A stretch of 64,000 bases of DNA from a virus (lineage: Duplodnaviria > Heunggongvirae > Uroviricota > Caudoviricetes). Within the stretch, counting starts at the first letter, position 1. Each line of letters opens with the position of its first letter. Positions 9,040 to 35,272 of the stretch are shown in pieces. Under the pieces are notes generated by a model. That model had not been told where the DNA came from, did not search any database, and saw only the letters and a program-made list of their open reading frames with translations. The DNA is taken from the IMG/VR virus record IMGVR_UViG_3300024265_000032; one strand, given 5' to 3'. Made by a program: the position numbers and the translations under genes.

Positions 9040-9200
9040 ATTCTCGGCCCTATCCGATAAGTATTCGTGTCCACGCATACAAACCAAACTGTTATGTGCC
9101 ACGTCCGATAATCGCCCACGGCCCAACGTCCGATAATTTTCTGGTCTGCGCAAAGAAAAAGGTCCGATAATTCGGACCCCTGATCTTTTTAGTTATCACC
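9040..9200 (+). repeat. higher-order repeat copy 1 (~120-150 bp conserved core ending in near-palindrome GGTCCGATAATTCGGACC followed by T-run)
   Basis: ...aagtattcgtgtccacgcatacaaaccaaac...acgtccgataat...cggtccgataatt...gcgcaaagaaaaaggtccgataattcggacccctgatcttttt. Confidence 0.7.
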
Positions 9201-10565: not shown

Positions 10566-11669
10566 AGTGTTATTCTAGTTATCGGTCCATCGGCGAGATG
10601 GGCTCATGGTCCGAAAACAATTCGAGATGCCGAACCGCGATCGGTCCGATAATTTCTTCCCATCGTCGCTTCATGTCAGTTATCGGTCGTACCGGCTCAC
10701 CGTTGAGCGCATCCAACATTCCGATAATCTCCCGTTTTTCGGTGTTATCCAACGTCTGATAACATTCAATGGAAACCTTGTTTTGGTCCCAAAACCAATG
10801 TAGTTTCTGGACCATATGGAAACGTCCGATACCTTCCGGCTTCCTGCTGAGCCGATAATTGCCACTTGTTATCGGAGTACGAGAGTACGTCCGAATAATC
10901 GAAATCCCATGTGGAGAATAGTGAAAAACCAACATATTATCGCTCCTTGATTGCCAGTTGTGCCGTCCGATAATTCGTATGTAAACGTCCGATAGTGATT
11001 CGGTTACGCACCGTATCATGTCCGATAAGCCGTATCGAACCGGATGTAAGTGTTACTGTAACGAAGCCATCTTGTTCCGATAACGTCCTGGCGAACAGCG
11101 TCCCATAACTCATCGCCATCTGGTCCGATAAGTTAGTCTCGTGCGCCTCTGGGCAATTATCGGTCGCCGGAATCGTGATCGTTGCACGTCCCATAATATC
11201 CTCCTTTAGAACCATAGTCCGAGAACTGTGATGATAATCGTGTGTCCGATAACCATCATCCAGAATTGTTTTTCGCGTCCCATAATACTACTCCGTAAAG
11301 CACTGGAAAGAACAGTCCGGTAATCCTCGATACTGCGAATTCCGGAAATTGTTGGACCCATAACATCCGCATTGCCACCATCCTGCGATGGCTGAATTTC
11401 GGACCAAACCCTGTCCGCAATTAGGACACTTGCCCGTAGAAACGACCGATATTGCCTCGGCTTTGCATTCGGCAAGGCGTTTTTTATCACACGTAAGGCA
11501 CGTCCCAGAATAACGGCTTCTCACGCGCCCACAACGACATTTTAATCTGAGTCCCATAATTATCCCTTTCTGTGCCACTGTCCGGTAACATCGTACAGAT
11601 CGGCTGCGGTCATCGGAAGTTTAGGTCCGAAAAAAAACTCTTTGATTGTCGTCAGCAAACGTCTCATAA

Positions 11670-11905
11670 TTATCCCCTTTTTGCTTCACTACATTATACG
11701 ATTCAAAAACCAGGAAATCAAGCCCGATAACCAACTATTACAAAATTCTTTTTTCGTCCTATAACTATGGCCATGGCTAGCCGTCAGCCCCGAAACGTCG
11801 TTATTACAGGGACCGTCTTATAAGTATTCACGTACACGACCACAGACCAAACGATTACCCGGACCGTCCGATAATGCCCTCACGGCGGTCCGATAACTAC
11901 TACTC
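11670..11905 (+). repeat. higher-order repeat copy 3 (partial)
   Basis: cgtcttataagtattcacgtacacgaccacagaccaaacgattacccggaccgtccgataatgccctcacggcggtccgataac; ~1.36 kb after copy 2. Confidence 0.65.
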
Positions 11906-13032
11906 TACTGCTGAACGTCTGATAACTAGATGAGAGAGAGAAGGTCTGATAACTAGAACTGTCGCTGCGAGGTGTTGGTCTGATAACTACTGCTGCTTGG
12001 TAGTCCGATAACCTCACGATACTGGCAAACGCAAAGGGCCGATAACTCGACCCCATTCGGCGCGTCGTCTTTGTTATAGGACGCAATGGAAAGCGTCCGA
12101 TACTGCTATGCCGTACTGGCACGTCTCATAACTTGGCCAGTTTATCGGAAGTCTAGGAGCATGGTCGTAATTATCGGTCGTTTCTACGATGTCGGCGTCG
12201 ATGTCCGATAACCATTTCAGAAAGTCTGATAACCAAATGGTTGGAATTACTGCATACTCGGACCACCACTTATCGGAACCGCAAACCTCTTCGGCGATCT
12301 TGGTCCGATATTTCACAAATGTCATTTGCATGTTATTGGCCCATCCCATAACAGTTGTTGTTATCGGAGCACACGAAGTGGCCACTGTTCGGTCCGATAA
12401 CTCCGATGCCTTCGGCGGTCCGATAAAGTTTTAGGTCACATCCGGATGTTAGTCCGATAAGAGCCAGGATCACGAGTCGTCCGATAATCTTCATTTCGAT
12501 TCTTCGCTCGTTGCGAGGTTATGTCCGATAACTCTAGCCACCGATGGCTGCTTGAATTTCGGACGTTACATGAGAGAAGAGTCCCATAACTTTAGAAACA
12601 ACGACCCAACCGATAGTGGCCGTCACTGCGAGTCCGATAAGTTTGGTGGTCATGGCTTTGCCTTTCGTTCGTTTGGTGTCTCTATCCTATCTACATGATA
12701 GCATTAGTTATACCGAATAGCAAGAGAAAAGGAAAAGAATCTTTTGGTCCGATAACTCGCCTTGCTCGTCGAGCAAGCAAGGTCTGATAACAAGCTGATA
12801 GCATAGTCTGATAACAAAAGGAAGGTACTAGTCCGATAACGGAACTCGGTTGGGGGTCGCCCGGAAATATGGATAGGTCCGATAACTCGGGTGGGTCCGA
12901 TAACCCATGGGGGTTTAGGCACAACAGGGTCAAAAAAGCCAGAGCCTACAACTTTTCGTGTACATGATATCTAACCCAGAGCCCATTCGCTTTACCCCAT
13001 ACACTTTTTTCCCAAAAAAAATCGAAGACACT

Positions 13033-20142: not shown

Positions 20143-20517
20143 ATGGAAGAAGCTTACGGGAAAGAATTGATTCTCGATCTTAGTATGTGCGATATTTCGA
20201 CATTCAACCGAGAGTCTATCGGTAATTATTTCGACGCTCTGTGCAAACTCATTGATATGCAAGCAGAGGATCGACATTTTTGGGATGACGAAGGCTTGTC
20301 AGAAGAAGAATGTCAAACCGATCCTAAGACAACGGGTGTGAGTGCTGTGCAGTTCATTCTTACCAGCACGATCGTATTGCATTCTCTGCCGAAGCTTGGT
20401 AAGGTTTTTATCAACATATTCTCCTGCAAGGACTTTGACCAAGAGCAGGCTTGCATGTTCACGGTTGAATGGTTCGGCTCCCAAAAGTTCAGGCGACATG
20501 TTGTGGAGAGGCGATAG
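20143..20517 (+). CDS. S-adenosylmethionine decarboxylase (SpeH, class 1b)-fold protein with non-canonical processing site
   Basis: GKELILDLSMC (cf. GKH/LILDLYGC) and GVSAVQFILTSTIVLHSLPKLGKVFINIFSCKD (cf. GVSGVVLLAESHISIHTWPE...VDVFTCG); the Glu-Ser self-cleavage pair is replaced by Thr-Ser-Thr. Confidence 0.55.
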   Translation: MEEAYGKELILDLSMCDISTFNRESIGNYFDALCKLIDMQAEDRHFWDDEGLSEEECQTDPKTTGVSAVQFILTSTIVLHSLPKLGKVFINIFSCKDFDQEQACMFTVEWFGSQKFRRHVVERR

Positions 20518-20520
20518 ACA

Positions 20521-21789
20521 ATGCGTATTATTGAACGATCGGTAATTCTCGACAGCCTCTGTGAAATTGAACATCTTGGTCGCGAGATGTTGATATACCA
20601 TAGAGAAATTCTTGTACGTTTTGTTGTAGAAGAGATCAAGGATCATAGGTTCTATTGTAGTGTAAGTGCTATTGCTGATATTGCTGATATTCCGCTCAAT
20701 TCTAGATTTTTATCAGATGCTCCCAATTTCAAATCAAATCCGAATATAACAAATGATGATAAATTTCGTGTAGCCTTAGTTATTCCGACAGGCTTGGGTG
20801 CTTCTGTTGGTGGCAATGCCGGTGACGGTGGTGCTACCGCAAGGCTTATGGCTTCCGTTTGTGACAAATTGATTACGCATCCCAATGTGGTTAACGCTTC
20901 TGACTTTAACGAGATGACCGATAACACTCTGTACGTCGAAGGGTATACATTAACACAATACCTACTAGGGCATATTGGTTTACAAGAAGTGCGACAGAAT
21001 CGTGTTATTGTCGTTGTTGATGGCTCTGCCGAGCCCGCATATATTCATGCTGCTATCAATGCCGTCAATGCTGCCCGCGTTACTTATGGATTCGATTGTC
21101 TAAAGGTAGTCGTACTAGATGACCCCTTCGTCATGGAAACCGGTTGGTCTAGCCATGGTCGTGCAGCGGGTAGTGTCGCCAACCTGGGCCAATTGTTTGA
21201 GGTACTAGAAAGAGAACGAGATTCGTATGATGCTATCGCATTAACGTCACTCATTGGTATTCCAGATAAAGATCGTGATCATTACTACAAGCATGGTGGA
21301 GTGAATCCGTGGGGCGGTGTTGAAGCCATGCTTACACATGCCGTGTCTCATGTCTTTGGAGTGCCATGCGCTCATGCTCCCATGATGGAGTCACAAAAGA
21401 TAGACAATATGGATTTTGGAATAGTTGATCCGCGATGTTCGGCTGAAACTGTTTCAGTTACGTATCTACCATGTGTTCTGAAAGGACTTAATCGTGCTCC
21501 ACGTATTGTTGACTCTAGTCCCGACATATCATGCTTGGTCATTCCACAAAGATGTTTAGGTATTCCAATGTTGGCTGCATACGACAGAGATATACCCATT
21601 GTTGTTGTCGATGATGAACTTGAGGTTGACGATGTAAATTGTCTTGATCACATTGAGGCGATATCTGTTGATAACTATGTCGAAGCCGTTGGCGTTGTTG
21701 CAGCGATGAGGGCTGGCATTAGTGTTGAATCGCTTGGTCGTCCGATCGGAAGCGTAGAGGTTTGTAGGGAGGGATCATCAAATGATTGA
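20521..21789 (+). CDS. conserved hypothetical protein (422 aa) with Gly-rich PTGLGASVGGNAGDGGATARL motif; translationally coupled to the AdoMetDC-like gene
   Basis: long ORF; ATAGACAATG junction with upstream gene; family not recognised with confidence. Confidence 0.6.
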   Translation: MRIIERSVILDSLCEIEHLGREMLIYHREILVRFVVEEIKDHRFYCSVSAIADIADIPLNSRFLSDAPNFKSNPNITNDDKFRVALVIPTGLGASVGGNAGDGGATARLMASVCDKLITHPNVVNASDFNEMTDNTLYVEGYTLTQYLLGHIGLQEVRQNRVIVVVDGSAEPAYIHAAINAVNAARVTYGFDCLKVVVLDDPFVMETGWSSHGRAAGSVANLGQLFEVLERERDSYDAIALTSLIGIPDKDRDHYYKHGGVNPWGGVEAMLTHAVSHVFGVPCAHAPMMESQKIDNMDFGIVDPRCSAETVSVTYLPCVLKGLNRAPRIVDSSPDISCLVIPQRCLGIPMLAAYDRDIPIVVVDDELEVDDVNCLDHIEAISVDNYVEAVGVVAAMRAGISVESLGRPIGSVEVCREGSSND

Positions 21790-25839: not shown

Positions 25840-26081
25840 CAACAGATGACCCGAGAAGAAGAGCTAACAAGATCGTTATGGACCTGTGTTATCGTATCGA
25901 GAGAATGTGTCGTTACTCTGCGTTAGGAGACAAAGAGGTTGATGATCAATCCATGACCGACAGAAAAACCGTAGAGGGACTCTATGTCTTTTACCGCAAG
26001 AATGGTAATGATGAAAATTCTGCCGCCAGACAAGCTAGGGTTAACGCTATTCGTCTTGTGCTGAATGAGGTTTTTTCATGA
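25836..26081 (+). CDS. hypothetical protein (81 aa)
   Basis: ORF track; ATGA overlaps. Confidence 0.5.
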   Translation: MTTDDPRRRANKIVMDLCYRIERMCRYSALGDKEVDDQSMTDRKTVEGLYVFYRKNGNDENSAARQARVNAIRLVLNEVFS

Positions 26082-26887
26082 AACCTACCTGGATAATACA
26101 GACAAATATGGAAGGTGTCGACACTGGTCCGATGGTCGATGTCGTCAGTGCTCAGGGGATGTTGGCAATACCAATAGAACACACGACAGGAATGCTTTAT
26201 GATTTTAGTCCATACGATCATCAAGACTGTATTCTTTTCTACGGCGACATAGATTTTGTGCGACAAGTTCAAAAGACAGCACCGTTCATTCCGGGTGCTT
26301 GGTGTAATTTCTACAACATGAAATGCAGTACATACTACGCATATTTTGGCGAGCAACTATTGAACAAAAACTACATTATGATGCCAGTTGGTGATCTACT
26401 AAGAAGGTGGGATGAGTTTGTGATCCCTGGTTATCCACATGTATTTGTTCGACCCGACAGTGGTGCGAAGCCGTTCTCTGGACACGTTATCAAATACGGA
26501 GAAAAGCACAAAATCCAAGCGATCATAGAGACGGTTGGTCCTGAGACTTTGGTTGTTGTAGCCCCAAGTAAGCCGATAGTATCAGAGTATCGTTTCGTGA
26601 TTTGTGAAAAAAAGGTTATTGCTGGATGTCAATATCTGCCGGTTGAACTACCTATTTACCCAACCCCCTCTTTGCGTCTTGCCTGTGTTATAGCGAATCA
26701 CGATTGGCAACCTGATTTGTGCTACACGGTGGACATAGCTGAACATGACGGTCAAATGTATCTTCTCGAAATCAACAGCTTCAGTTGCGCAGGTTTGTAC
26801 CAGTGTGATATCGGTGTTGTTGTTCAGTATGCCTCGTTGGCAGCTAAGTTTGAATGGAATGATTACGTTGATCCCATCAACAATTAG
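26078..26887 (+). CDS. ATP-grasp-like protein (269 aa)
   Basis: EYRFVICEKKVIAGCQY ... MYLLEINSFSCAG resembles the ATP-grasp C-terminal E-x-N catalytic loop region. Confidence 0.45.
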   Translation: MKPTWIIQTNMEGVDTGPMVDVVSAQGMLAIPIEHTTGMLYDFSPYDHQDCILFYGDIDFVRQVQKTAPFIPGAWCNFYNMKCSTYYAYFGEQLLNKNYIMMPVGDLLRRWDEFVIPGYPHVFVRPDSGAKPFSGHVIKYGEKHKIQAIIETVGPETLVVVAPSKPIVSEYRFVICEKKVIAGCQYLPVELPIYPTPSLRLACVIANHDWQPDLCYTVDIAEHDGQMYLLEINSFSCAGLYQCDIGVVVQYASLAAKFEWNDYVDPINN

Positions 26888-26905
26888 AGAGTTTTTTTTG
26901 GAGAT

Positions 26906-27361
26906 TTGCTTATGTGGTTTATGAAAAAGAAGGAATACGATTTCTACATAGCTGGTCCGATGCGAGGTTATCCGAATCTCAACAAGGATACGTTTGCTGC
27001 GGTAGCCGATGGTCTTAGGGCTATGGGTTTAACAGTGTGGAGTCCATCAGAACATGACAGTTACGTGAAGTTGTCGTTTGCACAATGTATTACACTCGAT
27101 CTGAATCAGGTTATCAATCATTGTAGGAAGATCGCATTTCTCCCAGGATGGAGAAAGTCTTTGGGGGCTAATATAGAAGCGTTTGCTGCATTTGCTTGTA
27201 AGAAAGAAGCACTTGAAGTGATAATCGATAAAAATACTGGTATGGATTTGGTTCCGCTTGATCTTAGCAATTATCTTTTGCCGTATCAGACTGGACATGA
27301 TCGTCGTAAGTTTGATCCGCATAGTTGTTCTGTAGATACACCCAATACAGATTATAACTAA
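26906..27361 (+). CDS. DUF4406 / nucleoside 2-deoxyribosyltransferase-like protein
   Basis: YIAGPMRGYPNLNKDTF ... DLNQVINHCRKIAFLPGWRKSLGANIE, typical of this family. Confidence 0.6.
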   Translation: MLMWFMKKKEYDFYIAGPMRGYPNLNKDTFAAVADGLRAMGLTVWSPSEHDSYVKLSFAQCITLDLNQVINHCRKIAFLPGWRKSLGANIEAFAAFACKKEALEVIIDKNTGMDLVPLDLSNYLLPYQTGHDRRKFDPHSCSVDTPNTDYN

Positions 27362-27633
27362 TCGGGTGGCGGTGGTACCTGATCGTCTAACATGCTTTTG
27401 AATCTATCTCGTTCGCGTCTGGTTGCTTCTACGTCAAATAGTAGATATATGACACATAGTCGCAATTCCTGTAACGAGTTGGCTATTTGTGCAATTTGTT
27501 TTTTTGTTTCTTCGCTCATGGTAGATTCCTTTGCTCCAGTCTTGATAATTATTTTGTTTGATTTCCTTGTTTTGGTCCCAGAAGCAATATCGATGATTTC
27601 ACGTAATCTATGATTGAATTCATCTTCTTTCAT
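27358..27633 (-). CDS. hypothetical protein (91 aa)
   Basis: first gene of inverted block. Confidence 0.5.
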   Translation of the reverse strand: MKEDEFNHRLREIIDIASGTKTRKSNKIIIKTGAKESTMSEETKKQIAQIANSLQELRLCVIYLLFDVEATRRERDRFKSMLDDQVPPPPD

Positions 27634-27649
27634 AGTACGTCAGTCCTTC

Positions 27650-28249
27650 CTACGTATCACGAGAATCCCACACCACCTTAAAGGTAGGAGTGTTTACTAT
27701 GTCGTCAGCAACTACTGTTATTCGGCCAAATCGTTTCTTGCCTTCGATATATCCTGGATAGCAATGAGCAACAAGTTCGGTGCAGCTAAATCTCGATGTC
27801 TCATTAAAGTCAAAAGCGAAATCGTATTCGCTGCCGATGGCTGCTTTGGCCCGTTTGGTTGCTTCTTCTTGTAGGCCCTCTGGAGTTCTCAGAACGATCA
27901 GATGGTCCGTCCGCATGAAATCAATGAGATCGTCGACCACAACCCCATCGCTGATGGAGTGAACCACCTTGTGTTGTTTGCCCTCAATTTCTCCGACATA
28001 CATTCCTGCGTGATTCCACCAGCCGGGGATGAGCCACTTGTCGACATACCCCTCGAATCTGCGGATTAGGATGTCTCCAGGCTGGATAATATGGTCTAGG
28101 TCTCTGTAATGTTTCCCTTTGAGCCGGAAAGTGTTGGCATTGATTGTGAACCAAAATGGATGCAGGATTCCGTTCCATTTGATGTCTCCGATAAAACGAA
28201 AGATAGCCTTTTCTAGTTTGAAGAGCAAACTTTCTTTCACATTGACCAA
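27650..28249 (-). CDS. permuted papain-like (YiiX/DUF830-type) hydrolase candidate
   Basis: His (WNHAGMYVG) precedes Cys (SRFSCTELVAH), the permuted order of YaeF/YiiX/LRAT-type thiol hydrolases. Confidence 0.45.
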   Translation of the reverse strand: MVNVKESLLFKLEKAIFRFIGDIKWNGILHPFWFTINANTFRLKGKHYRDLDHIIQPGDILIRRFEGYVDKWLIPGWWNHAGMYVGEIEGKQHKVVHSISDGVVVDDLIDFMRTDHLIVLRTPEGLQEEATKRAKAAIGSEYDFAFDFNETSRFSCTELVAHCYPGYIEGKKRFGRITVVADDIVNTPTFKVVWDSRDT

Positions 28250-28410
28250 CCCCTTTAGAGTTCTTTTCTGATGAAACTAACGACACCATACAAAAATGTG
28301 AGAACCATCGCAACTATCATACCCTGCGCCACTAATGATCCAGTATAAACCACACAAGCTAACATAACAATCCCCCCTTTTTGGAAAGAAACAACATACT
28401 TACCATAATC

Positions 28411-28845
28411 TTATACACCGTAGTCCGTGGCCAGATTTTCGTATTTATCAGGGTCTTCATCCGCCTGTCTGTGGCATTCAGCACACAGATACAGCAAAAA
28501 GAAGGGTCTGGAGTGATCTGGGTGGTGTCCTTGGATGTTTTTTTCGGACATGCAAAGTTCGCATTCATCTAGTGGGACGAGTTTCCCCGTTTTTACAGCC
28601 TGACGGACAAGGTATCGGGCGTGTTCCTTTTCGGGGAATTTTTCCTTGTCTCTTCTGGTTTGTTCTGCATTCGGGGTTGAAGGGTCACATCGGCGGTTTT
28701 CATTGGTCAGCTTGGAAGCGCATGATCGTGAACAGGTGTGTTTTTGTCCTATCTTTACGGTCTGTTTGATGCGACTTTCTTCTTTTTCGAAAGGTTCCCT
28801 ACACCATTCACAATTAACCGTTCGGGTATCGACCATTATTGCCAT
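28411..28845 (-). CDS. HNH-like Zn-finger nuclease candidate (144 aa)
   Basis: CEWCR...CSRSC...ECELCMSEKNIQGHHPDHSRPF..LCAECH. Confidence 0.5.
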   Translation of the reverse strand: MAIMVDTRTVNCEWCREPFEKEESRIKQTVKIGQKHTCSRSCASKLTNENRRCDPSTPNAEQTRRDKEKFPEKEHARYLVRQAVKTGKLVPLDECELCMSEKNIQGHHPDHSRPFFLLYLCAECHRQADEDPDKYENLATDYGV

Positions 28846-29759
28846 GCTTTCAAATTACGTTGGGCATATCGGTCTTTATAGATTATAGCCCTTGGGTTTG
28901 ACAGAACGGCATCTGCAATGATTTCATTGTACAGAGTGTGAATTTGGTTAACTGGTGGTTTATCAGGTAGATCACTACCTTTCTCTGCATTGTTGGCGTC
29001 GAGTTTAGCGTATTCGTAGAGCGTAGATACTTCATCCAAATTCAATTCACCCTGCTTTATAGATAAAAGCAATTCTGCGCGAGGACAAGGAAATGTAATG
29101 TTACCTGTGTCCATGAGTTCTTTGAGTTGATCAAGCAATCTGATTGTATGACACGCGCTGGAAGTACAATAACCATGCAACTTTATTTGTTTTTTCCGCT
29201 TAGCACCCAGTTTGCGATTTGTCTTGCGAGTTTCCATTTGATGATTCATAAATAAAAGACGTATGATTTCATCCATCGATTCTTTCCCTGGATGAAATAC
29301 TTGTCGTATGTTCTCGACCACTGTATCTTCATTGGATGTTCTCTTGATAGGGACGAGTTGAGTACCCGTGACTTTTCTCCATTCTGATTCTGCATATCCC
29401 CCGATGCGTCTGGCAAATTGCTTACATGCAAATAATGATCTGTTACGAAGAACAGTACCTCCAACATCTGTTCGCTCAATGATATTTGGCTCGGGTGCAA
29501 ATAGAATTTCATAGCATAATGGATCGCCGCTAATTAGAAGTTCGAAAAATCGTTTGAGAGAATATATCACGATATCTGGTTCTCTAATGACTTTTTGCTC
29601 GAATCGAGCTAAGCCAGCAAGATACTCGAAAGGGGGTATAGTGAATCCTCGATAGTCGTGATCACTTTCTTGCGTTTTGGTACCGTACAATCTAGACCCA
29701 GCCATTACGAGAAAATCTGGATTGTCGATACTGCGAGTGAGTTCTGCTTCTTTGTTCAT
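28836..29759 (-). CDS. Pol-beta superfamily nucleotidyltransferase (PF10127/RlaP-like candidate)
   Basis: MAGSRLYGTKTQESDHDYRGF = hG[GS]...DhD nucleotidyltransferase motif. Confidence 0.55.
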   Translation of the reverse strand: MNKEAELTRSIDNPDFLVMAGSRLYGTKTQESDHDYRGFTIPPFEYLAGLARFEQKVIREPDIVIYSLKRFFELLISGDPLCYEILFAPEPNIIERTDVGGTVLRNRSLFACKQFARRIGGYAESEWRKVTGTQLVPIKRTSNEDTVVENIRQVFHPGKESMDEIIRLLFMNHQMETRKTNRKLGAKRKKQIKLHGYCTSSACHTIRLLDQLKELMDTGNITFPCPRAELLLSIKQGELNLDEVSTLYEYAKLDANNAEKGSDLPDKPPVNQIHTLYNEIIADAVLSNPRAIIYKDRYAQRNLKAWQ

Positions 29760-30112
29760 ACGATTTTCAACTTATCCATCAACGACTCTACTTTAGCTAT
29801 ACACTGGTTGTGATCTTCTATGAACATTTCCATGAAATCTTCGGGGTTCAGCGGTGCTGGAGATTCATAGTTGTAGTCGATGAATTTGGCTTCTGGCAGA
29901 ATACAAACAATAAATTTTTTTATGACCGAGATTTGGCGACAGGGAAGCACACCTATATTCAAATGCTTTACGGGAGATTGCATATTATTTGCTTTAGCGA
30001 ATTCTTCAGCAGCAATATACACCTTTTCGATTGCGGCGAAAGTGGTTCTTGTTTTCCATCTAGACAGAAGAAAGTTCAACAGTTGTCTGCGGTTCTTTTT
30101 TGTTACTATCAC
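29756..30112 (-). CDS. hypothetical protein (118 aa)
   Basis: ORF track. Confidence 0.5.
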   Translation of the reverse strand: MIVTKKNRRQLLNFLLSRWKTRTTFAAIEKVYIAAEEFAKANNMQSPVKHLNIGVLPCRQISVIKKFIVCILPEAKFIDYNYESPAPLNPEDFMEMFIEDHNQCIAKVESLMDKLKIV

Positions 30113-30133
30113 TTTTTTGTTCTCCTTAATATG

Positions 30134-30544
30134 CTAATGCTGGTATAATAGATAAGATACGTACATAAGACATTCTGCCAAGAACGGAGCCAAACTTTGT
30201 CCTATTGTGTGGATTTCCGCGACAGTGAACCATCCTATTCCTACTATATCCACACAAGCGGGTTTGAGTTCCCCATCCCACATGTTACACAAAAAAATAT
30301 GCGTATTGTATTGTCCTACACGCAATGTATGTAGCAGCTTGAAATTGTGTCCGTTAAGATTGGTTTCTTCTTTGAGTTCTCTGGCGGCGGCGTTGGCAAG
30401 TGTCTTGTCTTCTGGATTAACTTTTCCTCCAGGGAAGCACCATGTTCCCCCCGATACATCATCGACCGATCTTTGTATTAGGAGAAAACGGTTTTTGCTT
30501 TTTAGAACAACCCAGACAACCTCGATCACATCTTCCCCTTTCAA
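30134..30544 (-). CDS. NUDIX hydrolase (MutT-like)
   Basis: Nudix box GGKVNPEDKTLANAAARELKEETNL. Confidence 0.8.
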   Translation of the reverse strand: MKGEDVIEVVWVVLKSKNRFLLIQRSVDDVSGGTWCFPGGKVNPEDKTLANAAARELKEETNLNGHNFKLLHTLRVGQYNTHIFLCNMWDGELKPACVDIVGIGWFTVAEIHTIGQSLAPFLAECLMYVSYLLYQH

Positions 30545-30581
30545 TAATAGAGGGATTCCATGGTATTATACACCGACTGTT

Positions 30582-31079
30582 CTATTTCCACGTTTTTCTA
30601 GTAACAATTTCTGATATACGATTTTGCGTAGTAGCAAAGTCATTGGCAATGGATTGTTGTGTTTCTCCATTCGCGTATCGAGAACGTATTGAGTCAATAT
30701 CTGTTTGTGTGAATCTAGCTCTGCCATGTTTTTCTTTTGTACACATAGTCCCGTGTATTTTTTTGTCATCGGAATTGTCTTGGGATGTACCCCATCGAAG
30801 ATTGTTTGGTAAATTGTTTGATCTATTTCCATCGAGATGACGAGATACCATTCCGATAGCACATGGTCCATGGAAAGCACAACAAATCAATCGATGGACT
30901 TTTAAGGATCGCCTATGTCCGTTACATCGAACCCTAATTATCATATATCCATCTTTGTCAGCATGTTGAACTAATTTTTTCAGTTGTCCATTACGACAAA
31001 TGCGATAGATATTGCCTTTATTATCTACTCTACATTGGGGAAAATCGGGAATAATTTGTAGGTTAGCGATCATCACCAT
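30582..31079 (-). CDS. HNH homing endonuclease (HNH_3/AP2-type)
   Basis: YMIIRV...KVHRLICCAFHG...VSRHLDGNRSNNLPNNLRWGTSQDN. Confidence 0.75.
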   Translation of the reverse strand: MVMIANLQIIPDFPQCRVDNKGNIYRICRNGQLKKLVQHADKDGYMIIRVRCNGHRRSLKVHRLICCAFHGPCAIGMVSRHLDGNRSNNLPNNLRWGTSQDNSDDKKIHGTMCTKEKHGRARFTQTDIDSIRSRYANGETQQSIANDFATTQNRISEIVTRKTWK

Positions 31080-31647
31080 CGCCCTTCAGCTTGCCTCTTT
31101 CTTGACGACTTAGCAATTTTTCTATGTTGCCAGTGTAAACATTTTCCAGGGTGCAGTTGCACCTGATAGCAAATTCTTCGATGCACGCAAGAACCTTTGT
31201 CACGTTATGAGCTATAGCTACGAATCTGCTGCGTTCTCCCAAGTGACAAGCATAATCGTAATACCATGATTCAAGTGCTTCTGCGACAAGTGATGCGCAT
31301 CTGTTCATATACAGCACCAATTGTGGCCACTCCATCAAGCGAACTTTCTGTGTTTGCGAACTGTTTTTCATTTCGTAGCACATTTGTAGATCACAGTCCG
31401 TATCAGAACAAAGATTCGACAAATACCAACAACAATCCCCCAATTCCTTCCTGATAGCCTCTTTCCTCTTGTCGGTCAATTTACCGTTGTCATCACGGTA
31501 AAGCTTCTTGACTTTTTCCGCTACTTCACCACACTCTCCTACGAGTCCTAGTCCTGGGTAGATCATGGATATATCTACATCGTAATCTTCTCCTGTGTGA
31601 TAAACGGCAGTCGACCTAGCTTTCTCTTGGTATTCTCTAAGATTCAT
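31063..31647 (-). CDS. MazG-like nucleoside triphosphate pyrophosphohydrolase
   Basis: YPGLGLVGECGEVAEKVKK and ELGDCCWYL (EExxE/ELGDxLW MazG motifs). Confidence 0.7.
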   Translation of the reverse strand: MNLREYQEKARSTAVYHTGEDYDVDISMIYPGLGLVGECGEVAEKVKKLYRDDNGKLTDKRKEAIRKELGDCCWYLSNLCSDTDCDLQMCYEMKNSSQTQKVRLMEWPQLVLYMNRCASLVAEALESWYYDYACHLGERSRFVAIAHNVTKVLACIEEFAIRCNCTLENVYTGNIEKLLSRQERGKLKGDGDDR

Positions 31648-32353
31648 TATCTTCCTCCTGGAGTAATTCTGTTTCTTTTGGGACCATATTCAAGATGTCG
31701 GCTACGAACTGTATGTTCGGAGACAACACAACAAATGCTTCTTTGGGGGGTATCCCTAACTGCTTGGATGCAATCTTGGCAGATTCAGCCAACTTCGGGG
31801 CCATAGCTCTTATTGAAGCCATAGCTCGGCCTATCGGATCGGTTATTTCAATATCCTGAAAACGATATCGCTTAATTCTAATGCCTAATTCCTTACATAT
31901 CTCAGTGATTTTTGAACCTATCGCTTCCTCTACTGTGCTACTATCGTTGACTAAATCATCAAATGGAACCGTGGTGACAATGTGTCTGATTGCAGCTTCG
32001 CAAGCCTCGATCATGAACTGATCGGAATCTTCGGTAAAGGTAAGATACTTCATGAGATTGGTGATTCTGTAAATCACAACACCTCTTATGCGAACAGAAA
32101 GACCATCCTCTGTCAAGACGTACATTGATTCTGCTATGCCGAGGTTTGTTTGGACATGTCGTTTTTCGATTGTCTGTCCTGTTGTGCCGAAATGAATTCC
32201 CGATTCCAAATCTTTGCTTGGTTTTCCGAAGGTAAATCGAATAGCCGACCATCCAGGGATAACTATCGCCCATTTAATTGGACAAATCCAAACGATTGGG
32301 GCTATCAACAAGTTTTCGATCATAGCCATTATTCGAGTTAGCAATTCACTCAT
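31637..32353 (-). CDS. SPFH/band-7 (stomatin/prohibitin-like) domain protein with N-terminal TM
   Basis: N-terminal hydrophobic segment then SVRIRGVVIYRITN...KYLTF core typical of SPFH. Confidence 0.6.
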   Translation of the reverse strand: MSELLTRIMAMIENLLIAPIVWICPIKWAIVIPGWSAIRFTFGKPSKDLESGIHFGTTGQTIEKRHVQTNLGIAESMYVLTEDGLSVRIRGVVIYRITNLMKYLTFTEDSDQFMIEACEAAIRHIVTTVPFDDLVNDSSTVEEAIGSKITEICKELGIRIKRYRFQDIEITDPIGRAMASIRAMAPKLAESAKIASKQLGIPPKEAFVVLSPNIQFVADILNMVPKETELLQEEDNES

Positions 32354-32583
32354 ACAACTATCCTATCACATTGTATCCACTGAGCACGTTAATCAATACA
32401 TCCAAACTACAACAGTCACATGGTTTCGTAAGTTTCTTTTTTCCGAAACAGCCAGGACATAATGTTCTTATGTGGTGAGTGGTAATGTGTATGAATATTA
32501 TCTTGTAAATACACGATTCGCAAATACATACTCCACCCATAAGTTTTTTGGTCTTTCTCGTCGAGTAATACTGACCACAGGTG

Positions 32584-32937
32584 TCACATATGATCTTTCT
32601 GAAGAATAACCCTGCCAATTTTTTCCACGACAACGACAAAATGCGAATGATAAAGGTCGATAAAGTCTGCGATAGTCCATGAAAAGCCATTCATAATCTC
32701 CGGTTCACTACGTATCAAATCCGCCCACTTGGGTAATTCTACACACAATTCATTCTGGATTTTTTGTTGTCGTTCGTATGTCTCGAAATCAAAAACGACA
32801 GGCTTTCCCGATGTTCTTCTGATTCGTCTCTTCAAACCATCAACCTGTTTCCCAGCTTTTTTTATGCAAGCCTTTTTGCTATCGTCAATCAATTCGATCC
32901 ACTGTGCAAGAAGTTCTTTGACTACAACTTTGTTCAC
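32584..32937 (-). CDS. hypothetical protein (117 aa)
   Basis: ORF track; preferred over overlapping 32358..32690. Confidence 0.4.
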   Translation of the reverse strand: MNKVVVKELLAQWIELIDDSKKACIKKAGKQVDGLKRRIRRTSGKPVVFDFETYERQQKIQNELCVELPKWADLIRSEPEIMNGFSWTIADFIDLYHSHFVVVVEKIGRVILQKDHM

Positions 32938-33656
32938 TTCAAGTCCTCCAAAAAGTCAATATCACCACCTGTTTCGTCCAGCTTCTTTCTGATGTCTTTT
33001 ATCTGACCAAAAATTTGTTTTGAGTTGTCGGCGATCTTATCCGGGGATGAATCGACAAAAGTCAATTCCCAAAATATGCTGGTAATCAGACACCAGAGTG
33101 TTGGATCGATTCTTAGGCTGAATCCTGTTCTGTGAAAACTTTTCTCATCTTGTATAAATGGTGGACAAAAATGAACGATTGGCGAGACGCGAATAGGAAG
33201 GTGTGCAAGGTCGTTGACGGGGGTGAACTCTATCCCATACCCTCTGGTTTCTGGGCATTTGCAGGGTTCATCTTCGCAAACACATCCGGGTCCGACTCCA
33301 TGGAAACCCATAAGACCCGATAGTTCACTTTTTGTGGGGTCTTCCCAACTTAAATCATCCTTCATGTCGCACTCTGATTTCCAGTAGAGTTCGAGATATT
33401 CTGGTTGGACTATAGCATTGGGGTCTCTGTTTTTATTGATCTGGGTCCAGAATGAATCGAAGTCTTCCATACCAAAGATTTTGGCAATTCCTGGGGTTAT
33501 TCTTTCTGCCAACGCGATGAGTTTGAACACGTCATAGAGAGTAAAGTCATGTGCAATCTTTGTGACACTCCACTGAAAATCACTTGGTCTGAAGTCATCT
33601 CTATGGTATTGTTTGGTCAGATGTATGCCGAACGACGCAGGATTATGCTCTGGCAT
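32934..33656 (-). CDS. hypothetical protein (240 aa) with CxC/CKC cluster
   Basis: ORF track; ATGA overlap with downstream. Confidence 0.55.
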   Translation of the reverse strand: MPEHNPASFGIHLTKQYHRDDFRPSDFQWSVTKIAHDFTLYDVFKLIALAERITPGIAKIFGMEDFDSFWTQINKNRDPNAIVQPEYLELYWKSECDMKDDLSWEDPTKSELSGLMGFHGVGPGCVCEDEPCKCPETRGYGIEFTPVNDLAHLPIRVSPIVHFCPPFIQDEKSFHRTGFSLRIDPTLWCLITSIFWELTFVDSSPDKIADNSKQIFGQIKDIRKKLDETGGDIDFLEDLK

Positions 33657-34362
33657 ATTTTACCCCTAGATGGTCAGCCGTTTGTTGGATAACGTTTTCA
33701 CTAATCTCTACCCCTACGCAGTTCACGCCGAGCCTTTGACAGACTATAGCCGTTGTTCCGCTTCCCAAGAACGGGTCTAACACACGACCACCTGGGCGGC
33801 AATGTCCTTTGACGATACGCTCCACCAGCGCTTCTGGAAGTTGAGTTGGGGACCATTTTCTCTTCTCCTTAAACGTACCGCACACCCGAGGGAATTCCCA
33901 CACATTGGGCGGCATTTTACCGCCAGGAAGGGCTCTTTTATCGTTGTATTTTGTTTGTCGTGCGCTAGGCACCTTGATTTCTTCTGGTCTAACGTAGTCC
34001 GAATTCAACCAGTACATCGGTCTGTAGCAAAGACCATATCTACCTCTGTTTGTTTGGTCCTGACCAAAAGTGTAATACCACTGTAATCTTTGAATTATTG
34101 GGATACAACTGTTACCAAGGGCGTATTCAATCAATTCGGTCCATTTCGCGTTGAAGGTGAAAAAAATGGGTCCGTTAGTCAGACCAGCCATCATATCGAG
34201 CCAGTCCTGGATGTTCTGCTTGTAAACGTCTGGTGGTTGATTATCTTTGAAACCATCGTACTTGAGGCCAATATTGTCCGGTGGATCGGCTATAATCAGG
34301 TCTATCTGGCCGCTTTTGCGTATGTTTGCTTTTTCGAATTCACCGTGAATCAATTTGATCAT
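33643..34362 (-). CDS. DNA methyltransferase (N6A/N4C, beta-class)
   Basis: motif IV DLIIADPPDN precedes motif I LDPFLGSGTTAIV. Confidence 0.8.
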   Translation of the reverse strand: MIKLIHGEFEKANIRKSGQIDLIIADPPDNIGLKYDGFKDNQPPDVYKQNIQDWLDMMAGLTNGPIFFTFNAKWTELIEYALGNSCIPIIQRLQWYYTFGQDQTNRGRYGLCYRPMYWLNSDYVRPEEIKVPSARQTKYNDKRALPGGKMPPNVWEFPRVCGTFKEKRKWSPTQLPEALVERIVKGHCRPGGRVLDPFLGSGTTAIVCQRLGVNCVGVEISENVIQQTADHLGVKYARA

Positions 34363-34499
34363 ACTGTGATCTCCAGAGAAATATTCCTACATACTATTAT
34401 ACGTCAGGTAGGGGCTTGTGTCCCAAAAAAAAGATAAAAAAAACCGAGCGCTTTTACCAAAATGTGCTGTCTATATATATGGAGGGGTGTTTTTATCGG

Positions 34500-34513
34500 A
34501 CGTTGTGTATAAT
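34500..34513 (+). promoter_or_regulatory. TGTGTATAAT promoter-like motif in divergent intergenic region
   Basis: cgttgtgtataatttcc ~10 nt before 34522 start. Confidence 0.45.
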
Positions 34514-34521
34514 TTCCAGGG

Positions 34522-34710
34522 GTGATGAAAATGAGTGATGAGAAAAACAAGATTGATTGTCGACTGAAGGCCACTGGAACAAGTAAGGCTGACGCGAAGG
34601 TCGTCAAAGACTTGTCTGTCCCTGATCCAGAACCAGCAGTTGGGAAAAAAATTCTTGACGAACTGACTGAAGAGGAATCAAAGGATGACGCAAGATCAAA
34701 GAATTCTTAA
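34522..34710 (+). CDS. hypothetical acidic protein (62 aa)
   Basis: ORF track. Confidence 0.45.
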   Translation: MMKMSDEKNKIDCRLKATGTSKADAKVVKDLSVPDPEPAVGKKILDELTEEESKDDARSKNS

Positions 34711-35272
34711 TGAAGCATATCCCATAATTGAGAAGATAGCAAAATCTCGTAGTAGCAATGGTGCATTCGCGTATTATTGTAACGACGACATAAGACAAGA
34801 AGTATGGTGCATGTGCTTGGAAGCGATGGATCGATACGATCCAAAGGTTGGTCCTATAGAAAACTACTTGGCAAGACATGTGGCTAACCGTATCAAAAAT
34901 CTGAAAAGAGACAAATATTTCCGTCCTGGATCAGATGTACCAAGTTCTGGGTTCGCACGAATCAGAATGAATCTTATTAATGCACTTCCTCTTGGCGGTG
35001 GAGATATTGCTGACCAAGGAACCCTCTTGTGTGGCACGCCCATCAGTTGTGATCCAATAAACTACATATTGTGTGAAGATGATCCAATAAACTACATCTT
35101 GTGTGAAGAAACTTTTGTATATATCAAGGAAAGACTGCCAGAGGATTTACTTTTGCCGTTCGAAGCATTGGTGGGCAACAATAAGGTTCGCAGTCAAGTT
35201 ACCGATCTTGTCAGAAAACATGTTATTGACATTCTAAGAGAAAGGGAAGAAGATGGCGGAAACGAAGAATAA
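34685..35272 (+). CDS. sigma-70-family (ECF-like region 2) factor candidate; contains 30-bp tandem duplication
   Basis: DIRQEVWCMCLEAMDRYDP..GPIENYLARHVANRIKNLKRDKY; tandem DPINYILCED/DPINYILCEE at ~35045-35105. Confidence 0.5.
   Translation: MTQDQRILNEAYPIIEKIAKSRSSNGAFAYYCNDDIRQEVWCMCLEAMDRYDPKVGPIENYLARHVANRIKNLKRDKYFRPGSDVPSSGFARIRMNLINALPLGGGDIADQGTLLCGTPISCDPINYILCEDDPINYILCEETFVYIKERLPEDLLLPFEALVGNNKVRSQVTDLVRKHVIDILREREEDGGNEE

What the first reader, a model, noticed from the sequence alone, without database searches (positions are those of the whole stretch)
27358..34362. 7-kb inverted accessory island: NTase, NUDIX, MazG, SPFH, two HNH nucleases, papain-like hydrolase, DNA MTase
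A contiguous minus-strand block interrupts the plus-strand gene flow. It is convergent with 26906..27361 and divergent from 34522. It concentrates nucleotide-pool and nucleic-acid-modifying functions: a Pol-beta nucleotidyltransferase, a NUDIX hydrolase, MazG, a beta-class methyltransferase and HNH endonucleases. It also carries an SPFH/band-7 membrane protein and a permuted papain-like hydrolase. This mix is typical of anti-defence or takeover cargo, such as reducing alarmones, methylating DNA against restriction, or degrading defence signalling nucleotides. The NTase-NUDIX proximity is reminiscent of signal-synthesis/signal-hydrolysis pairs. Several of the proteins (29756..30112, 32584..32937, 32934..33656) have no recognisable family.
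Basis: inference. Interest (0 to 1): 0.6.

Follow-up and report, generated by a model that had tools for sequence, protein, structure and literature searches.

The report
Conserved inverted accessory operon of phage
The 7-kb backward-facing gene block is real, but it is a conserved, promoter-driven operon shared by a family of large uncultivated phages, with a few swappable gene cassettes, and not a recently acquired island; its role in countering host defences is plausible but unproven.

Summary
These are Peptidase_C92, a zinc-ribbon HNH, a PF10127/RlaP NTase, NUDIX, HNH_3, MazG, SPFH and a beta-class MTase. A 13th gene was missed (32358-32690, Cys-rich).

The "island" reading fails. Twelve IMG/VR relatives from 160-180 kb phages (45-90% aa identity) carry the same inverted block between the same flanks, DUF4406 and a sigma-like operon. 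Base composition is unremarkable.

The block is a stable backbone with gene-sized cassettes that come and go.
- Backbone: MTase, B10, MazG, NUDIX, the zinc-HNH and C92 in most relatives. Only C92, B5, B10, MTase and the protease slot persist in the most distant relative, L022.
- Cassettes in this genome: RlaP NTase, HNH_3 and SPFH, the last replacing a ClpP-like protease.
- Cassettes in relatives: Macro and a CYTH-kinase.

A conserved sigma70-type promoter (ACGTATAAT class) drives the block. A second conserved motif (GTGTATAAT) sits upstream of NUDIX.

The NTase-NUDIX "signal pair" idea is not supported. The NTase is present in 2 of 13 genomes with a complete block, against 10 of 13 for NUDIX. 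It is not a CD-NTase, and the Nudix box is lost in three relatives.

The block does resemble published phage NTase-adjacent anti-defence neighbourhoods (NTase + MTase + MazG-like Atd1). Verdict: a new member of a known kind, of moderate interest.

The parts
34396..34424 (-). Class I sigma70-type promoter of the block: T-rich upstream tract, GGGACA, a 17-nt spacer, then (AC)GTATAAT. It lies about 35 nt upstream of the MTase start codon.
   Evidence: It is the best promoter match in the region, 10 of 12. ACGTATAAT occurs 6 times in the window against 0.45 expected, and every copy is intergenic and points at a gene. The T-tract / (C/G)GAACA / 17 nt / CGTATAAT arrangement is conserved upstream of the first block gene in L005, L006, L009, L012, L016, L017 and L020.
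33643..34362 (-). B12, a beta-class N6/N4 amino-methyltransferase (YhdJ/PRK11524-like) with a non-canonical motif IV, D26-P-P-D29
   Evidence: PF01555 107.7 bits. PDB 9c3u/8urk E 3e-23, with ADPPDNIG aligned to ADPPYGLG. DPPD or DIPD in all relatives. D-x-P-D in 34 of the 139 nearest 50%-cluster representatives.
32934..33656 (-). B11, a 240-aa protein of unknown function. Its start overlaps the MTase stop by 14 nt.
32584..32937 (-). B10, a 117-aa helical-bundle protein of unknown function, present in 10 of the 13 genomes with a complete block
32358..32690 (-). It overlaps the 3' end of B10 by 107 nt in the +1 frame.
   Evidence: Homologues in L005, L006, L007, L009 and L013, with a conserved ATG position and conserved Cys pattern. 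In L007 it occurs without B10.
31637..32353 (-). B9, an SPFH/Band-7 protein (HflK-like) with an N-terminal hydrophobic segment. It is a variable cassette occupying the slot that holds a ClpP-like protease in most relatives.
   Evidence: PF01145 66.4 bits. TIGR01933 hflK E 3e-11. Kyte-Doolittle 2.03 at residues 15-33. Present only in the window, L003/4 and L005. ClpP (PF00574, E 1e-27) fills the same slot in 10 relatives. No GenBank phage hit.
31063..31647 (-). B8, a MazG-like all-alpha NTP pyrophosphohydrolase, a long form with an insertion of about 70 aa
   Evidence: PF03819 30.6 bits. phrog_229 E 1e-26. E38xxE41 and E68xxD71 plus a C-terminal NIxKLxxRxxxGxxxGDGDxR motif are conserved in 12 homologues.
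30582..31079 (-). B7, an HNH_3 free-standing homing-type endonuclease, a mobile cassette
   Evidence: PF13392 48.8 bits. phrog_59 E 7e-35. A clean 494-bp indel (30575-31068) against the 83-87% identical L005. GC3 is 0.27, against 0.42 for the block. Paralogous endonucleases sit at other positions in relatives.
30565..30573 (-). Class II promoter-like motif GTGTATAAT in the gap upstream of NUDIX
   Evidence: 4 copies in the window against 0.5 expected, all intergenic: before the sigma operon, the 41297 gene, the 47052 gene and NUDIX. Conserved 32-59 nt upstream of NUDIX in L005, L007, L016, L017 and L018.
30134..30544 (-). B6, a MutT-like NUDIX hydrolase with an intact Nudix box (G39...R55-E-L-K-E-E60)
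   Evidence: PF00293 71.3 bits. The nearest NCBIfam models are MutT/NudG-type, all below their cut-offs. The box is deleted in L017 and degenerate in L015 and L018.
29756..30112 (-). B5, a 118-aa protein of unknown function, present in 7 of the 13 complete blocks, including the most distant one (L022)
   Evidence: No family. tblastn map.
28836..29759 (-). B4, a PF10127 (RlaP) Pol-beta nucleotidyltransferase with an intact GS...SDHD catalytic motif. It is a variable cassette.
   Evidence: PF10127 58.5 bits. phrog_388 E 1e-50. Homologous to the Bacillus phage Bcp1 NTase (BLASTP 2e-27), which is itself PF10127. A clean 936-bp indel (28819-29754) against L005. Present only in the window and L006.
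28411..28845 (-). B3, a zinc-ribbon plus HNH-type nuclease, conserved in 11 of the 13 complete blocks at 60-90% identity (absent from L022)
   Evidence: phrog_2340 E 9e-15. Invariant CxxC...C..SC and CExC...HHP...LC..CH motifs. No Pfam or PDB sequence hit.
27650..28249 (-). B2, a Peptidase_C92 (YiiX/YaeF permuted papain-like) enzyme and one of the best-conserved proteins of the block
   Evidence: PF05708 60.6 bits. Invariant WNHAG and RFSCTEL motifs. 47-90% identity in relatives. No PHROG and no GenBank phage hit.
27358..27633 (-). B1, a 91-aa protein of unknown function and the last gene of the block. Its end overlaps the convergent DUF4406 gene by 4 nt.
34474..34513 (+). Conserved control region of the divergent sigma-like operon: TATATATGGAGGGG, then TTATCGGAC, 3 nt, then GTGTATAAT
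   Evidence: Near-identical across relatives whose proteins are only 50-65% identical. TTATCGGAC occurs exactly once, at this same spot, in 10 of the 16 relative loci that span this region; L009/L010 read TTATAGGAC and L018 ATATCGGAC there.

Best explanation
The block is the conserved leftward operon of a family of roughly 160-180 kb uncultivated tailed phages.

Transcription. It is read divergently from the same control region as the sigma-like late-regulator operon. It starts at a conserved sigma70-type promoter of the class that also heads the replication module and the tmRNA gene. Host RNA polymerase probably uses that promoter early or in mid-infection. A second conserved promoter-like element precedes NUDIX.

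Gene content. A stable backbone carries gene-sized cassettes that are gained and lost. The backbone is the MTase, B11, B10, B9b, a protease/SPFH slot, MazG, NUDIX, B5, the zinc-HNH nuclease, the C92 hydrolase and B1. The cassettes in this genome are the RlaP NTase, the HNH_3 homing endonuclease and SPFH. Relatives carry ClpP, Macro, a CYTH-kinase and further homing endonucleases.

Inferred function. The operon conditions the infected cell's nucleic acids and nucleotide pools in the phage's favour.
- The MTase marks phage DNA against restriction.
- MazG and the MutT-like NUDIX hydrolyse nucleotides: (p)ppGpp, or unwanted (d)NTPs.
- The RlaP-family NTase either restores damaged RNA 3' ends or makes competitor cyclic dinucleotides.

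Shown here: anatomy, synteny, cassette indels, promoter motifs, and the family and motif assignments. Inferred: timing, substrates, and any effect on host defence.
For: - Synteny: 12 relatives with complete blocks show the same order and orientation between DUF4406 and the sigma-like gene, down to 45% aa identity.
- Composition: GC 0.423 and GC3 0.417, against 0.44 and 0.38-0.42 in the flanks.
- Tight packing: 4-17-nt overlaps between most genes.
- Cassette nature of B4 and B7: clean indels against L005.
- Slot replacement of ClpP by SPFH.
- Promoters.
- Intact catalytic motifs in MazG, NUDIX, C92, HNH and RlaP.
- Literature: PF10127 enzymes add 1-2 NMPs to RNA 3' ends (PMC12776372). Jumbo-phage RlaP is placed in RNA repair (PMC7824862). 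Phage NTases including Bcp1 make cyclic dinucleotides, block TIR-STING, and sit beside MTases and the MazG-like (p)ppGpp hydrolase Atd1 (10.1101/2022.06.09.495361). The Bcp1 NTase is a B4 homologue and has three MTases within 4 kb.
Against: - No component matches a characterised anti-defence protein at the orthologue level.
- PADLOC gives only generic MTase and NUDIX hits.
- No RNA ligase partner for RlaP appears in the Pfam annotation of genes called across the 64-kb window.
- MazG and MutT-like NUDIX are equally well explained as housekeeping.
- The MTase lacks the aromatic residue of the catalytic tetrapeptide, so even DNA methylation is not certain.
- The overall promoter scan is not enriched over shuffles (17 found, 20.9 expected). 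The promoter case rests on the specific conserved motifs.
- Host and expression timing are unknown.
Confidence: 0.6

Rival explanations
1. Pure housekeeping module. MazG and the MutT-like NUDIX sanitise or shape the dNTP pool for phage replication. The MTase, HNH and C92 serve DNA maturation. The block has no role in host-defence conflicts.
For: NUDIX is closest to MutT/NudG-type NTP pyrophosphohydrolases. The block abuts the replication and nucleotide-metabolism module (AAA_23, RNase_T, R2K ATP-grasp, DUF4406). The backbone genes are as conserved as the core flanks.
Against: The variable slots hold Macro, a CYTH-AAA_28 kinase, the RlaP NTase and homing endonucleases. This kind of turnover is typical of conflict genes. 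The Nudix box is dispensable in three relatives. A MazG-like phage protein has reported anti-defence activity.
Confidence: 0.25
2. Recently acquired genomic island: horizontally transferred cargo inserted, in inverted orientation, into this particular phage.
For: Strand inversion. No PHROG or GenBank phage homologues for C92 and SPFH. Low GC3 of B7 (0.27) and B4 (0.34).
Against: The whole inverted block lies at the same position in every relative with sequence there. Composition equals the flanks. There are no flanking repeats, and none of the 13 block proteins matches an integrase or recombinase family. Only B4, B7 and B9 behave as acquisitions.
Confidence: 0.04
3. NTase-NUDIX signalling pair. 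The NTase makes a nucleotide signal and NUDIX degrades it, acting as a coupled toggle.
For: The two lie close together, separated by one gene. Bcp1-type NTases of this family are reported to make cGAMP and c-di-AMP.
Against: The NTase occurs in 2 of 13 complete blocks and NUDIX in 10 of 13, so they are not co-inherited. A clean NTase indel leaves NUDIX untouched. NUDIX has its own promoter-like element. NUDIX is MutT-like. No defence-system model in PADLOC-DB 2.0.0 matched the NTase.
Confidence: 0.05
4. DNA hypermodification pathway. The DPPD methyltransferase-like enzyme and its translationally coupled partners B11 and B10 install a non-standard DNA modification. MazG and NUDIX clear the competing canonical nucleotide.
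For: The non-canonical motif IV is conserved under purifying selection. B12, B11 and B10 are linked by start-stop overlaps. B11 has a confident fold with no solved relative. Glycosyltransferase, epimerase, DUF4406 and ATP-grasp genes lie nearby.
Against: No base-modifying synthase, kinase or transferase typical of such pathways appears in the window's Pfam annotation. B11 is absent from about half the relatives. A DPPD-type MTase outside this family has an unrelated neighbour.
Confidence: 0.06

Closest known systems
Phage NTase-adjacent anti-defence gene neighbourhoods (Ho et al., bioRxiv 10.1101/2022.06.09.495361): Bcp1/Av05-type NTases flanked by DNA MTases, NAD-salvage genes and the MazG-like Atd1
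   Same: B4 is a homologue of the Bcp1 NTase (BLASTP 2e-27), and both are PF10127. The signature GS-x-LYGT-x4-SDxD is present. An MTase and a MazG-like gene lie in the same operon. Relatives add a Macro domain and an RNK-like kinase.
   Different: Here the NTase is an optional cassette (2 of 13 complete blocks), while MazG and the MTase are the constant parts. B8 is a long MazG form whose relation to Atd1 was not tested. No function was tested. The reported cyclic-dinucleotide activity conflicts with the RNA 3'-tailing activity reported for bacterial RlaP.
RlaP RNA-repair nucleotidyltransferases (PF10127; PMC12776372; PMC7824862)
   Same: The Pfam family match and an intact Pol-beta catalytic motif. 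The phage carries its own tRNAs and a tmRNA, which would be targets worth repairing.
   Different: No RNA ligase (RtcB or Rnl) or polynucleotide kinase is annotated in the 64-kb window. B4 carries an insertion of about 52 aa relative to Bcp1.
Beta-class N6-adenine DNA methyltransferases of the YhdJ/PRK11524 type (closest solved structures PDB 8urk and 9c3u)
   Same: PF01555. Motif IV precedes motif I (FLGSGTT). E 3e-23 to 9c3u/8urk.
   Different: The catalytic tetrapeptide is DPPD rather than DPPY or DPPF. This holds in the whole phage family and in about a quarter of the nearest cluster representatives.
Variable accessory regions ('hot spots') between conserved modules of large phages, with free-standing HNH homing endonucleases
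   Same: A fixed location, a conserved frame, gene-sized indels, and mobile HNH_3 genes at varying positions.
   Different: Most of the block is not variable. Its backbone is as conserved as the neighbouring core genes, and it has its own conserved promoter.

Membership tests
PF10127 RlaP / phage Bcp1-type NTase | Profile match above the curated threshold | tested here: met
   58.5 bits against a cut-off of 23. phrog_388 E 1e-50.
PF10127 RlaP / phage Bcp1-type NTase | Pol-beta catalytic signature GS-x-[AL]Y[GAN]T-x4-SDxD | tested here: met
   G21-S-R-L-Y-G-T-K-T-Q-E-S-D-H-D35 in the translation. It aligns to Bcp1 GSRLYGTDTENSDWD. The signature is as given.
PF10127 RlaP / phage Bcp1-type NTase | Genomic association with an RNA ligase (the basis of the RlaP name) | tested here: not met
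   No RNA ligase, RtcB or PNK family appears among the precomputed Pfam hits of genes called across the window. The rest of the genome was not available.
PF10127 RlaP / phage Bcp1-type NTase | Enzymatic activity (RNA 3' NMP addition, or cyclic-dinucleotide synthesis) | not testable with these tools
   Needs biochemistry.
CD-NTase / CBASS-type signal synthase | Match to cGAS/DncV-like NTase models | tested here: not met
   B4 has no hit to any of the 5,027 PADLOC-DB 2.0.0 defence-system models at E <= 0.01. Its only Pfam family is PF10127. I did not check that the library holds a CD-NTase model.
NUDIX hydrolase | Nudix box GX5EX7REUXEEXGU with catalytic glutamates | tested here: met
   G39/G40...R55-E-L-K-E-E60-T-N-L. 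PF00293 71.3 bits. The spacing is 1-2 residues longer than the consensus. The box is lost in L015, L017 and L018.
MazG all-alpha NTP pyrophosphohydrolase | ExxE and ExxD metal-binding motifs, and a profile match | tested here: met
   E38xxE41 and E68xxD71 are conserved in 12 homologues. PF03819 30.6 bits against a cut-off of 22.
MazG-like Atd1 ((p)ppGpp hydrolase, anti-TIR) | Orthology to the Pectobacterium phage PcCB7V Atd1, and ppGpp preference | not tested
   The PcCB7V sequence was not retrieved. tblastn of B8 listed mainly actinophage MazG genes.
Beta-class N6/N4 DNA amino-methyltransferase | PF01555 match with motif IV before motif I | tested here: met
   107.7 bits. DPPD at residues 26-29 and FLGSGTT at 198-204.
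Beta-class N6/N4 DNA amino-methyltransferase | Canonical catalytic tetrapeptide (D/N/S)PP(Y/F/W) | tested here: not met
   DPPD in the window and relatives, DIPD in L012, L013 and L020. Aligned to DPPY of 9c3u.
SPFH / Band 7 | SPFH domain plus an N-terminal membrane anchor | tested here: met
   PF01145 66.4 bits. Hydrophobic segment at residues 15-33, Kyte-Doolittle 2.03.
Peptidase_C92 (YiiX/YaeF permuted papain-like) | Profile match with conserved His and Cys in permuted order | tested here: met
   PF05708 60.6 bits. WNHAG precedes RFSCTEL, and both are invariant in 10 homologues.
HNH nuclease (B3) | beta-beta-alpha-metal motif with HH...H and zinc-binding CxxC pairs | tested here: inconclusive
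   The motifs CExC...HHP...LCxxCH are invariant, and phrog_2340 'endonuclease' matches at E 9e-15. No Pfam HNH model or PDB sequence hit was found.
Horizontally acquired genomic island | Absent from close relatives, atypical composition, mobility genes or flanking repeats | tested here: not met
   Present in all relatives. GC and GC3 equal the flanks. No flanking repeats. Only B4, B7 and B9 are cassette-like.

The most novel reading that the evidence does not exclude
The conserved 5' half of the operon could be an undescribed DNA- or nucleotide-modification system. It comprises the 'DPPD' methyltransferase-like enzyme, translationally coupled to B11 (a confident fold with no solved relative), the helical B10 and the Cys-rich B9b. 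The loss of the base-stacking aromatic residue would signal a new substrate or chemistry shared by a sizeable, unstudied subfamily of PF01555 proteins.
Probability: 0.1. Interest if true: 0.65.

Novelty: new member of a known kind. Interest (0 to 1): 0.35.

Why it matters
The result turns an apparent island into a defined evolutionary unit: a conserved operon frame in a large, uncultivated phage family whose slots exchange conflict-type genes. That frame is a practical place to look for new counter-defence genes, because any cassette sitting in it is a candidate.

It also brings up several concrete, testable oddities:
- a DPPD-motif methyltransferase subfamily;
- a ClpP-for-SPFH swap in one slot;
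- a NUDIX protein that keeps its fold but loses its catalytic box in some relatives;
- an NTase family with two conflicting published activities.

None of these changes current understanding on present evidence.

Tried and rejected
- Megablast of the block against GenBank phages: no match, so context had to come from IMG/VR.
- A viral-contig scan with the R2K ATP-grasp protein found nothing.
- PADLOC gave only generic MTase and NUDIX hits.
- PDB sequence searches for C92, RlaP and B3: nothing useful.
- Checked whether the ClpP gene left a remnant in the window: none.
- Checked whether DPPD-type MTases outside this family carry a B11-like neighbour. The two contigs examined were short, and the neighbour was unrelated.
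- Flanking inverted repeats that could explain an inversion: none.
- Rfam: nothing inside the block.
- Literature search for the DPPD motif: no paper.
- I first read B9b as membrane-anchored. Its hydrophobicity is below a transmembrane level, so I dropped that claim.
- A programmed frameshift joining B10 and B9b was considered and set aside. B9b has a conserved ATG of its own and occurs without B10 in L007.

Full report
**1. The observation**

The ORF list shows an unbroken run of minus-strand ORFs from 27358 to 34362.
- The run ends tail-to-tail, with a 4-nt overlap, against the + strand gene 26906-27361.
- It starts back-to-back with the + strand gene at 34522, across a 159-bp spacer.
- Plus-strand genes fill about 13-27.4 kb and 34.5-64 kb.
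- GC skew changes sign inside the block, as expected when the coding strand really changes.

PHROGs agrees for the NTase, NUDIX, HNH_3 and MazG.

The second 'HNH' (B3, 28411-28845) has no Pfam hit.
- It matches phrog_2340 'endonuclease'.
- It carries invariant CxxC / HH / CxxCH motifs.

One gene was missed. ORF 32358-32690 (B9b, 110 aa, four CxxC pairs) has homologues in L005, L006, L007, L009 and L013. Their ATG position is conserved. It overlaps the 3' end of B10 by 107 nt in the +1 frame. The block therefore holds 13 genes.

**2. Where the sequence comes from**

The block has no megablast match among 50,697 GenBank phage records. Terminase and NTase find only 24-29% identical proteins there. 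The window is nearly identical to metagenomic contigs: ENA ERZ27251120, JGI 3300009788 and Logan SRR5210996.

A scan of IMG/VR with the 306-aa protein just right of the block returned 22 loci. Several come from 160-181 kb viral contigs. The window also carries a terminase, a cement protein, tRNAs and a tmRNA. This is a large tailed phage of an uncultivated lineage. Its host is unknown.

**3. Is it an island?**

No. I mapped 31 window proteins onto the loci by tblastn. Every relative with sequence there has a minus-strand block between the DUF4406 gene and the small-ORF/sigma-like operon, in the same order.
- This holds from 75-94% identity (L005) down to about 45% (L022).
- The span varies from 4.2 to 9.2 kb.
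- Block GC (0.423) and GC3 (0.417) match the flanks.
- No repeats flank the block.

The word 'island' is still wrong for the block as a whole.

Counts below are out of the 13 genomes with a complete block, that is the window plus 12 relatives.

Recurrent backbone:

| Gene | Present in |
|---|---|
| MTase (B12) | 13 of 13 |
| MazG (B8) | 12 of 13 |
| Zn-HNH (B3) | 11 of 13 |
| C92 (B2) | 11 of 13 |
| NUDIX (B6) | 10 of 13 |
| B10 | 10 of 13 |
| B1 | 8 of 13 |
| B5 | 7 of 13 |
| B11 | 6 of 13 |

Gene-sized cassettes come and go on this backbone.
- Against L005 (83-87% nt identity) the window has exactly two extra segments. Segment 28819-29754 is the RlaP gene. Segment 30575-31068 is the HNH_3 gene.
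- RlaP occurs otherwise only in L006, at the same site and 66% identical.
- HNH_3-type endonucleases occur at different positions in other relatives. B7 has the lowest GC3 in the block, 0.27.
- The SPFH gene is found only in the window, L003/4 and L005.
- In ten other relatives the same slot after MazG holds a ClpP-like protease of about 235 aa (PF00574, E 1e-27). The window keeps no remnant of it.
- Relatives also carry a Macro-domain protein (L022), a CYTH + AAA_28 (NadR-RNK-like) kinase (L016, L022, and a deleted remnant in L006), and a 95-106-aa leader ORF before the MTase.

**4. Transcriptional anatomy**

Most neighbouring genes overlap by 4-17 nt. The divergent spacer is far better conserved than the proteins around it.

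On the minus strand it holds a T-rich tract, then GGGACA, 17 nt, and ACGTATAAT at 34396-34424. This is the best promoter match in the region.
- ACGTATAAT occurs six times in the window against 0.45 expected. Every copy is intergenic and points at a gene.
- The sites are 13054 and 13329 (head of the replication module), 18406, 57837, 60239 (before the tmRNA) and 34404 (the block).
- All six share the T-tract and a GGNACA-like -35.
- The same arrangement precedes the first block gene in seven relatives.

A second motif, GTGTATAAT, occurs four times against 0.5 expected.
- The sites are before the sigma-like operon (34505), before the genes at 41297 and 47052, and inside the block at 30565-30573, in the gap before NUDIX.
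- The NUDIX copy is conserved in five relatives.
- A one-mismatch copy lies at the end of B3, before C92 (28403-28420). Exact copies sit there in L009 and L022.

I infer two or three transcription units: MTase to MazG(/HNH_3) from the sigma70-type promoter, and NUDIX to B1 with an additional promoter shared with late-type genes. The generic promoter scan as a whole is not enriched over shuffles. The case rests on these specific, conserved motifs. Timing was not measured.

**5. The individual proteins**

*B12, the MTase.* It is a YhdJ/PRK11524-like beta-class amino-MTase. Its catalytic tetrapeptide is DPPD, aligned to DPPY of PDB 9c3u.
- The motif is DPPD in all relatives, and DIPD in three.
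- Among the 139 nearest 50%-identity cluster representatives that cover the motif, 60 have DPPY, 40 DPPF and 34 D-x-P-D.
- It is therefore a recurrent, apparently unstudied subfamily. No paper was found.

*B11.* A confident model (pLDDT 88.8) has no solved-fold relative. It matches only unnamed phage proteins.

*B10.* A generic helical bundle.

*B8, MazG.* It keeps the ExxE, ExxD and C-terminal motifs.

*B6, NUDIX.* It is MutT-like with an intact box. The box is deleted in L017 and degenerate in L015 and L018, while the rest of the protein stays conserved.

*B2, C92.* It keeps the His and Cys motifs. Like SPFH, it has no PHROG and no tblastn hit in GenBank phages.

*B4, the NTase.* It has the intact GS...SDHD motif and is homologous to the Bacillus phage Bcp1 NTase (BLASTP 2e-27). 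That protein is itself PF10127 and sits within 4 kb of three MTase genes.

**6. Function**

Two published activities exist for the B4 family.
- Bacterial RlaP adds one or two NMPs to damaged RNA 3' ends and is needed to restore tRNA function (PMC12776372). In jumbo phages it tracks RNA ligases (PMC7824862).
- Ho et al. report that the Bcp1 and Av05 NTases make 3'3'-cGAMP and c-di-AMP and inhibit TIR-STING. They also report that such NTase genes lie beside MTases, NAD-salvage genes and the MazG-like Atd1, which hydrolyses (p)ppGpp (10.1101/2022.06.09.495361).

The block here reproduces that neighbourhood: NTase, MazG and MTase, with Macro and an RNK-like kinase in relatives.

It remains an inference.
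- No orthologue of a characterised anti-defence protein was identified.
- PADLOC found nothing specific.
- No RNA ligase is annotated in the window.
- MazG plus a MutT-like NUDIX next to the replication module fits plain nucleotide-pool housekeeping equally well.

The specific 'NTase-NUDIX synthesis/hydrolysis pair' is not supported.
- The two genes are not co-inherited: the NTase is in 2 of 13 complete blocks, NUDIX in 10 of 13.
- The NTase indel leaves NUDIX untouched.
- NUDIX has its own promoter-like element.
- NUDIX loses its catalytic box in some relatives.

**7. Verdict**

The block is syntenic and conflict-flavoured, but it is not an island and not a signalling pair.
- It is best described as a conserved, promoter-driven accessory operon with exchangeable cassettes, in a new family of large environmental phages.
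- All enzymatic components belong to known families, and the architecture has published parallels. I rate it a new member of a known kind, with moderate interest (0.35).
- The least ordinary parts are the DPPD methyltransferase subfamily with its coupled unknown partners, the ClpP/SPFH slot swap, and the strand-biased TATCGGAC array. The array lies outside the block, but one copy sits in the block's shared control region.

Noticed in passing
window 8536-12902 (mostly minus strand); single copy at 34494-34501 (+): The 8-mer TATCGGAC occurs 47 times in the window against 1.9 expected. 42 copies lie on the minus strand between 8.5 and 12.9 kb, 18-120 nt apart, next to the cumulative GC-skew minimum (about 12-13 kb). 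One copy sits 3 nt upstream of the GTGTATAAT element of the sigma-like operon. In 10 of the 16 relative loci that span that region the 9-mer TTATCGGAC occurs exactly once, at that same spot. L085, from the same 160-kb genome as L006, has 24 copies in 5 kb. It looks like an iteron or operator array (an origin, or a regulator sink) tied to late-operon control.
   Followed up: partly
window 60432-60782 (+); 63090-63335 (+); 6830-6900 (-): The phage encodes a tmRNA (Rfam 137 bits, tag GESQFRMAA) preceded by a class I promoter at 60239. It also encodes tRNA-Phe, tRNA-Ala and two tRNA-Asp.
   Followed up: no
window 13054, 13329, 18406, 34404(-), 57837, 60239; and 30573(-), 34505, 41236, 47011: Two over-represented promoter-like motif classes, both conserved in relatives: T-tract/GGNACA/17 nt/ACGTATAAT (6 copies against 0.45 expected) and GTGTATAAT with no -35 (4 copies against 0.5 expected). 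The second class precedes the sigma-like operon, the 712-aa gene at 41297 and a Sigma70_r4-like gene at 47052.
   Followed up: partly
window 34460-34490 (+): The element CTGTCTATATATATGGAGGGGTG in the divergent spacer is almost invariant across relatives whose proteins are 50-65% identical. It is unique in the window. Its function is unknown.
   Followed up: no
relatives L006, L007, L009, L012, L016-L020, L022, in the slot equivalent to window 31637-32353: A ClpP-like protease (PF00574) occupies the slot that holds SPFH in the window, a like-for-like replacement of about 235 aa by 238 aa. Bacterial SPFH genes usually pair with ClpP-class NfeD proteases, so the swap may not be random.
   Followed up: partly
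window 32584-32690 (-): A 107-nt out-of-frame overlap between B10 and B9b. Both frames are conserved in relatives, and the overlap length is maintained in L009.
   Followed up: partly
window 35050-35109 (+), inside the sigma-like gene 34685-35272: A perfect-register 30-nt tandem duplication (97% identical) that encodes DPINYILCED / DPINYILCEE.
   Followed up: no
L006 14082-16849; L009, L014, L015, L018, L019 (TerL); L011 and L013 (epimerase): In many relatives the terminase large-subunit match covers only 47-74% of the protein and starts 1.7-2.8 kb after the upstream gene. The epimerase gene is split into two pieces about 1 kb apart in L011 and L013. These look like intron, intein or homing-endonuclease insertions that the window lacks.
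   Followed up: no
L015, L017, L018 (NUDIX homologues of window 30134-30544): The Nudix box is deleted (L017) or has lost the REx2EE glutamates (L015, L018), while the C-terminal half stays conserved. These may be pseudo-enzymes.
   Followed up: no
window 20143-21789 and 26078-27361 (+): The + strand module to the left of the block carries AdoMet_dc, DUF3326, an R2K-clade ATP-grasp and a DUF4406 (nucleoside deoxyribosyltransferase-like) gene. This is an unusual set of metabolic or modification genes.
   Followed up: no
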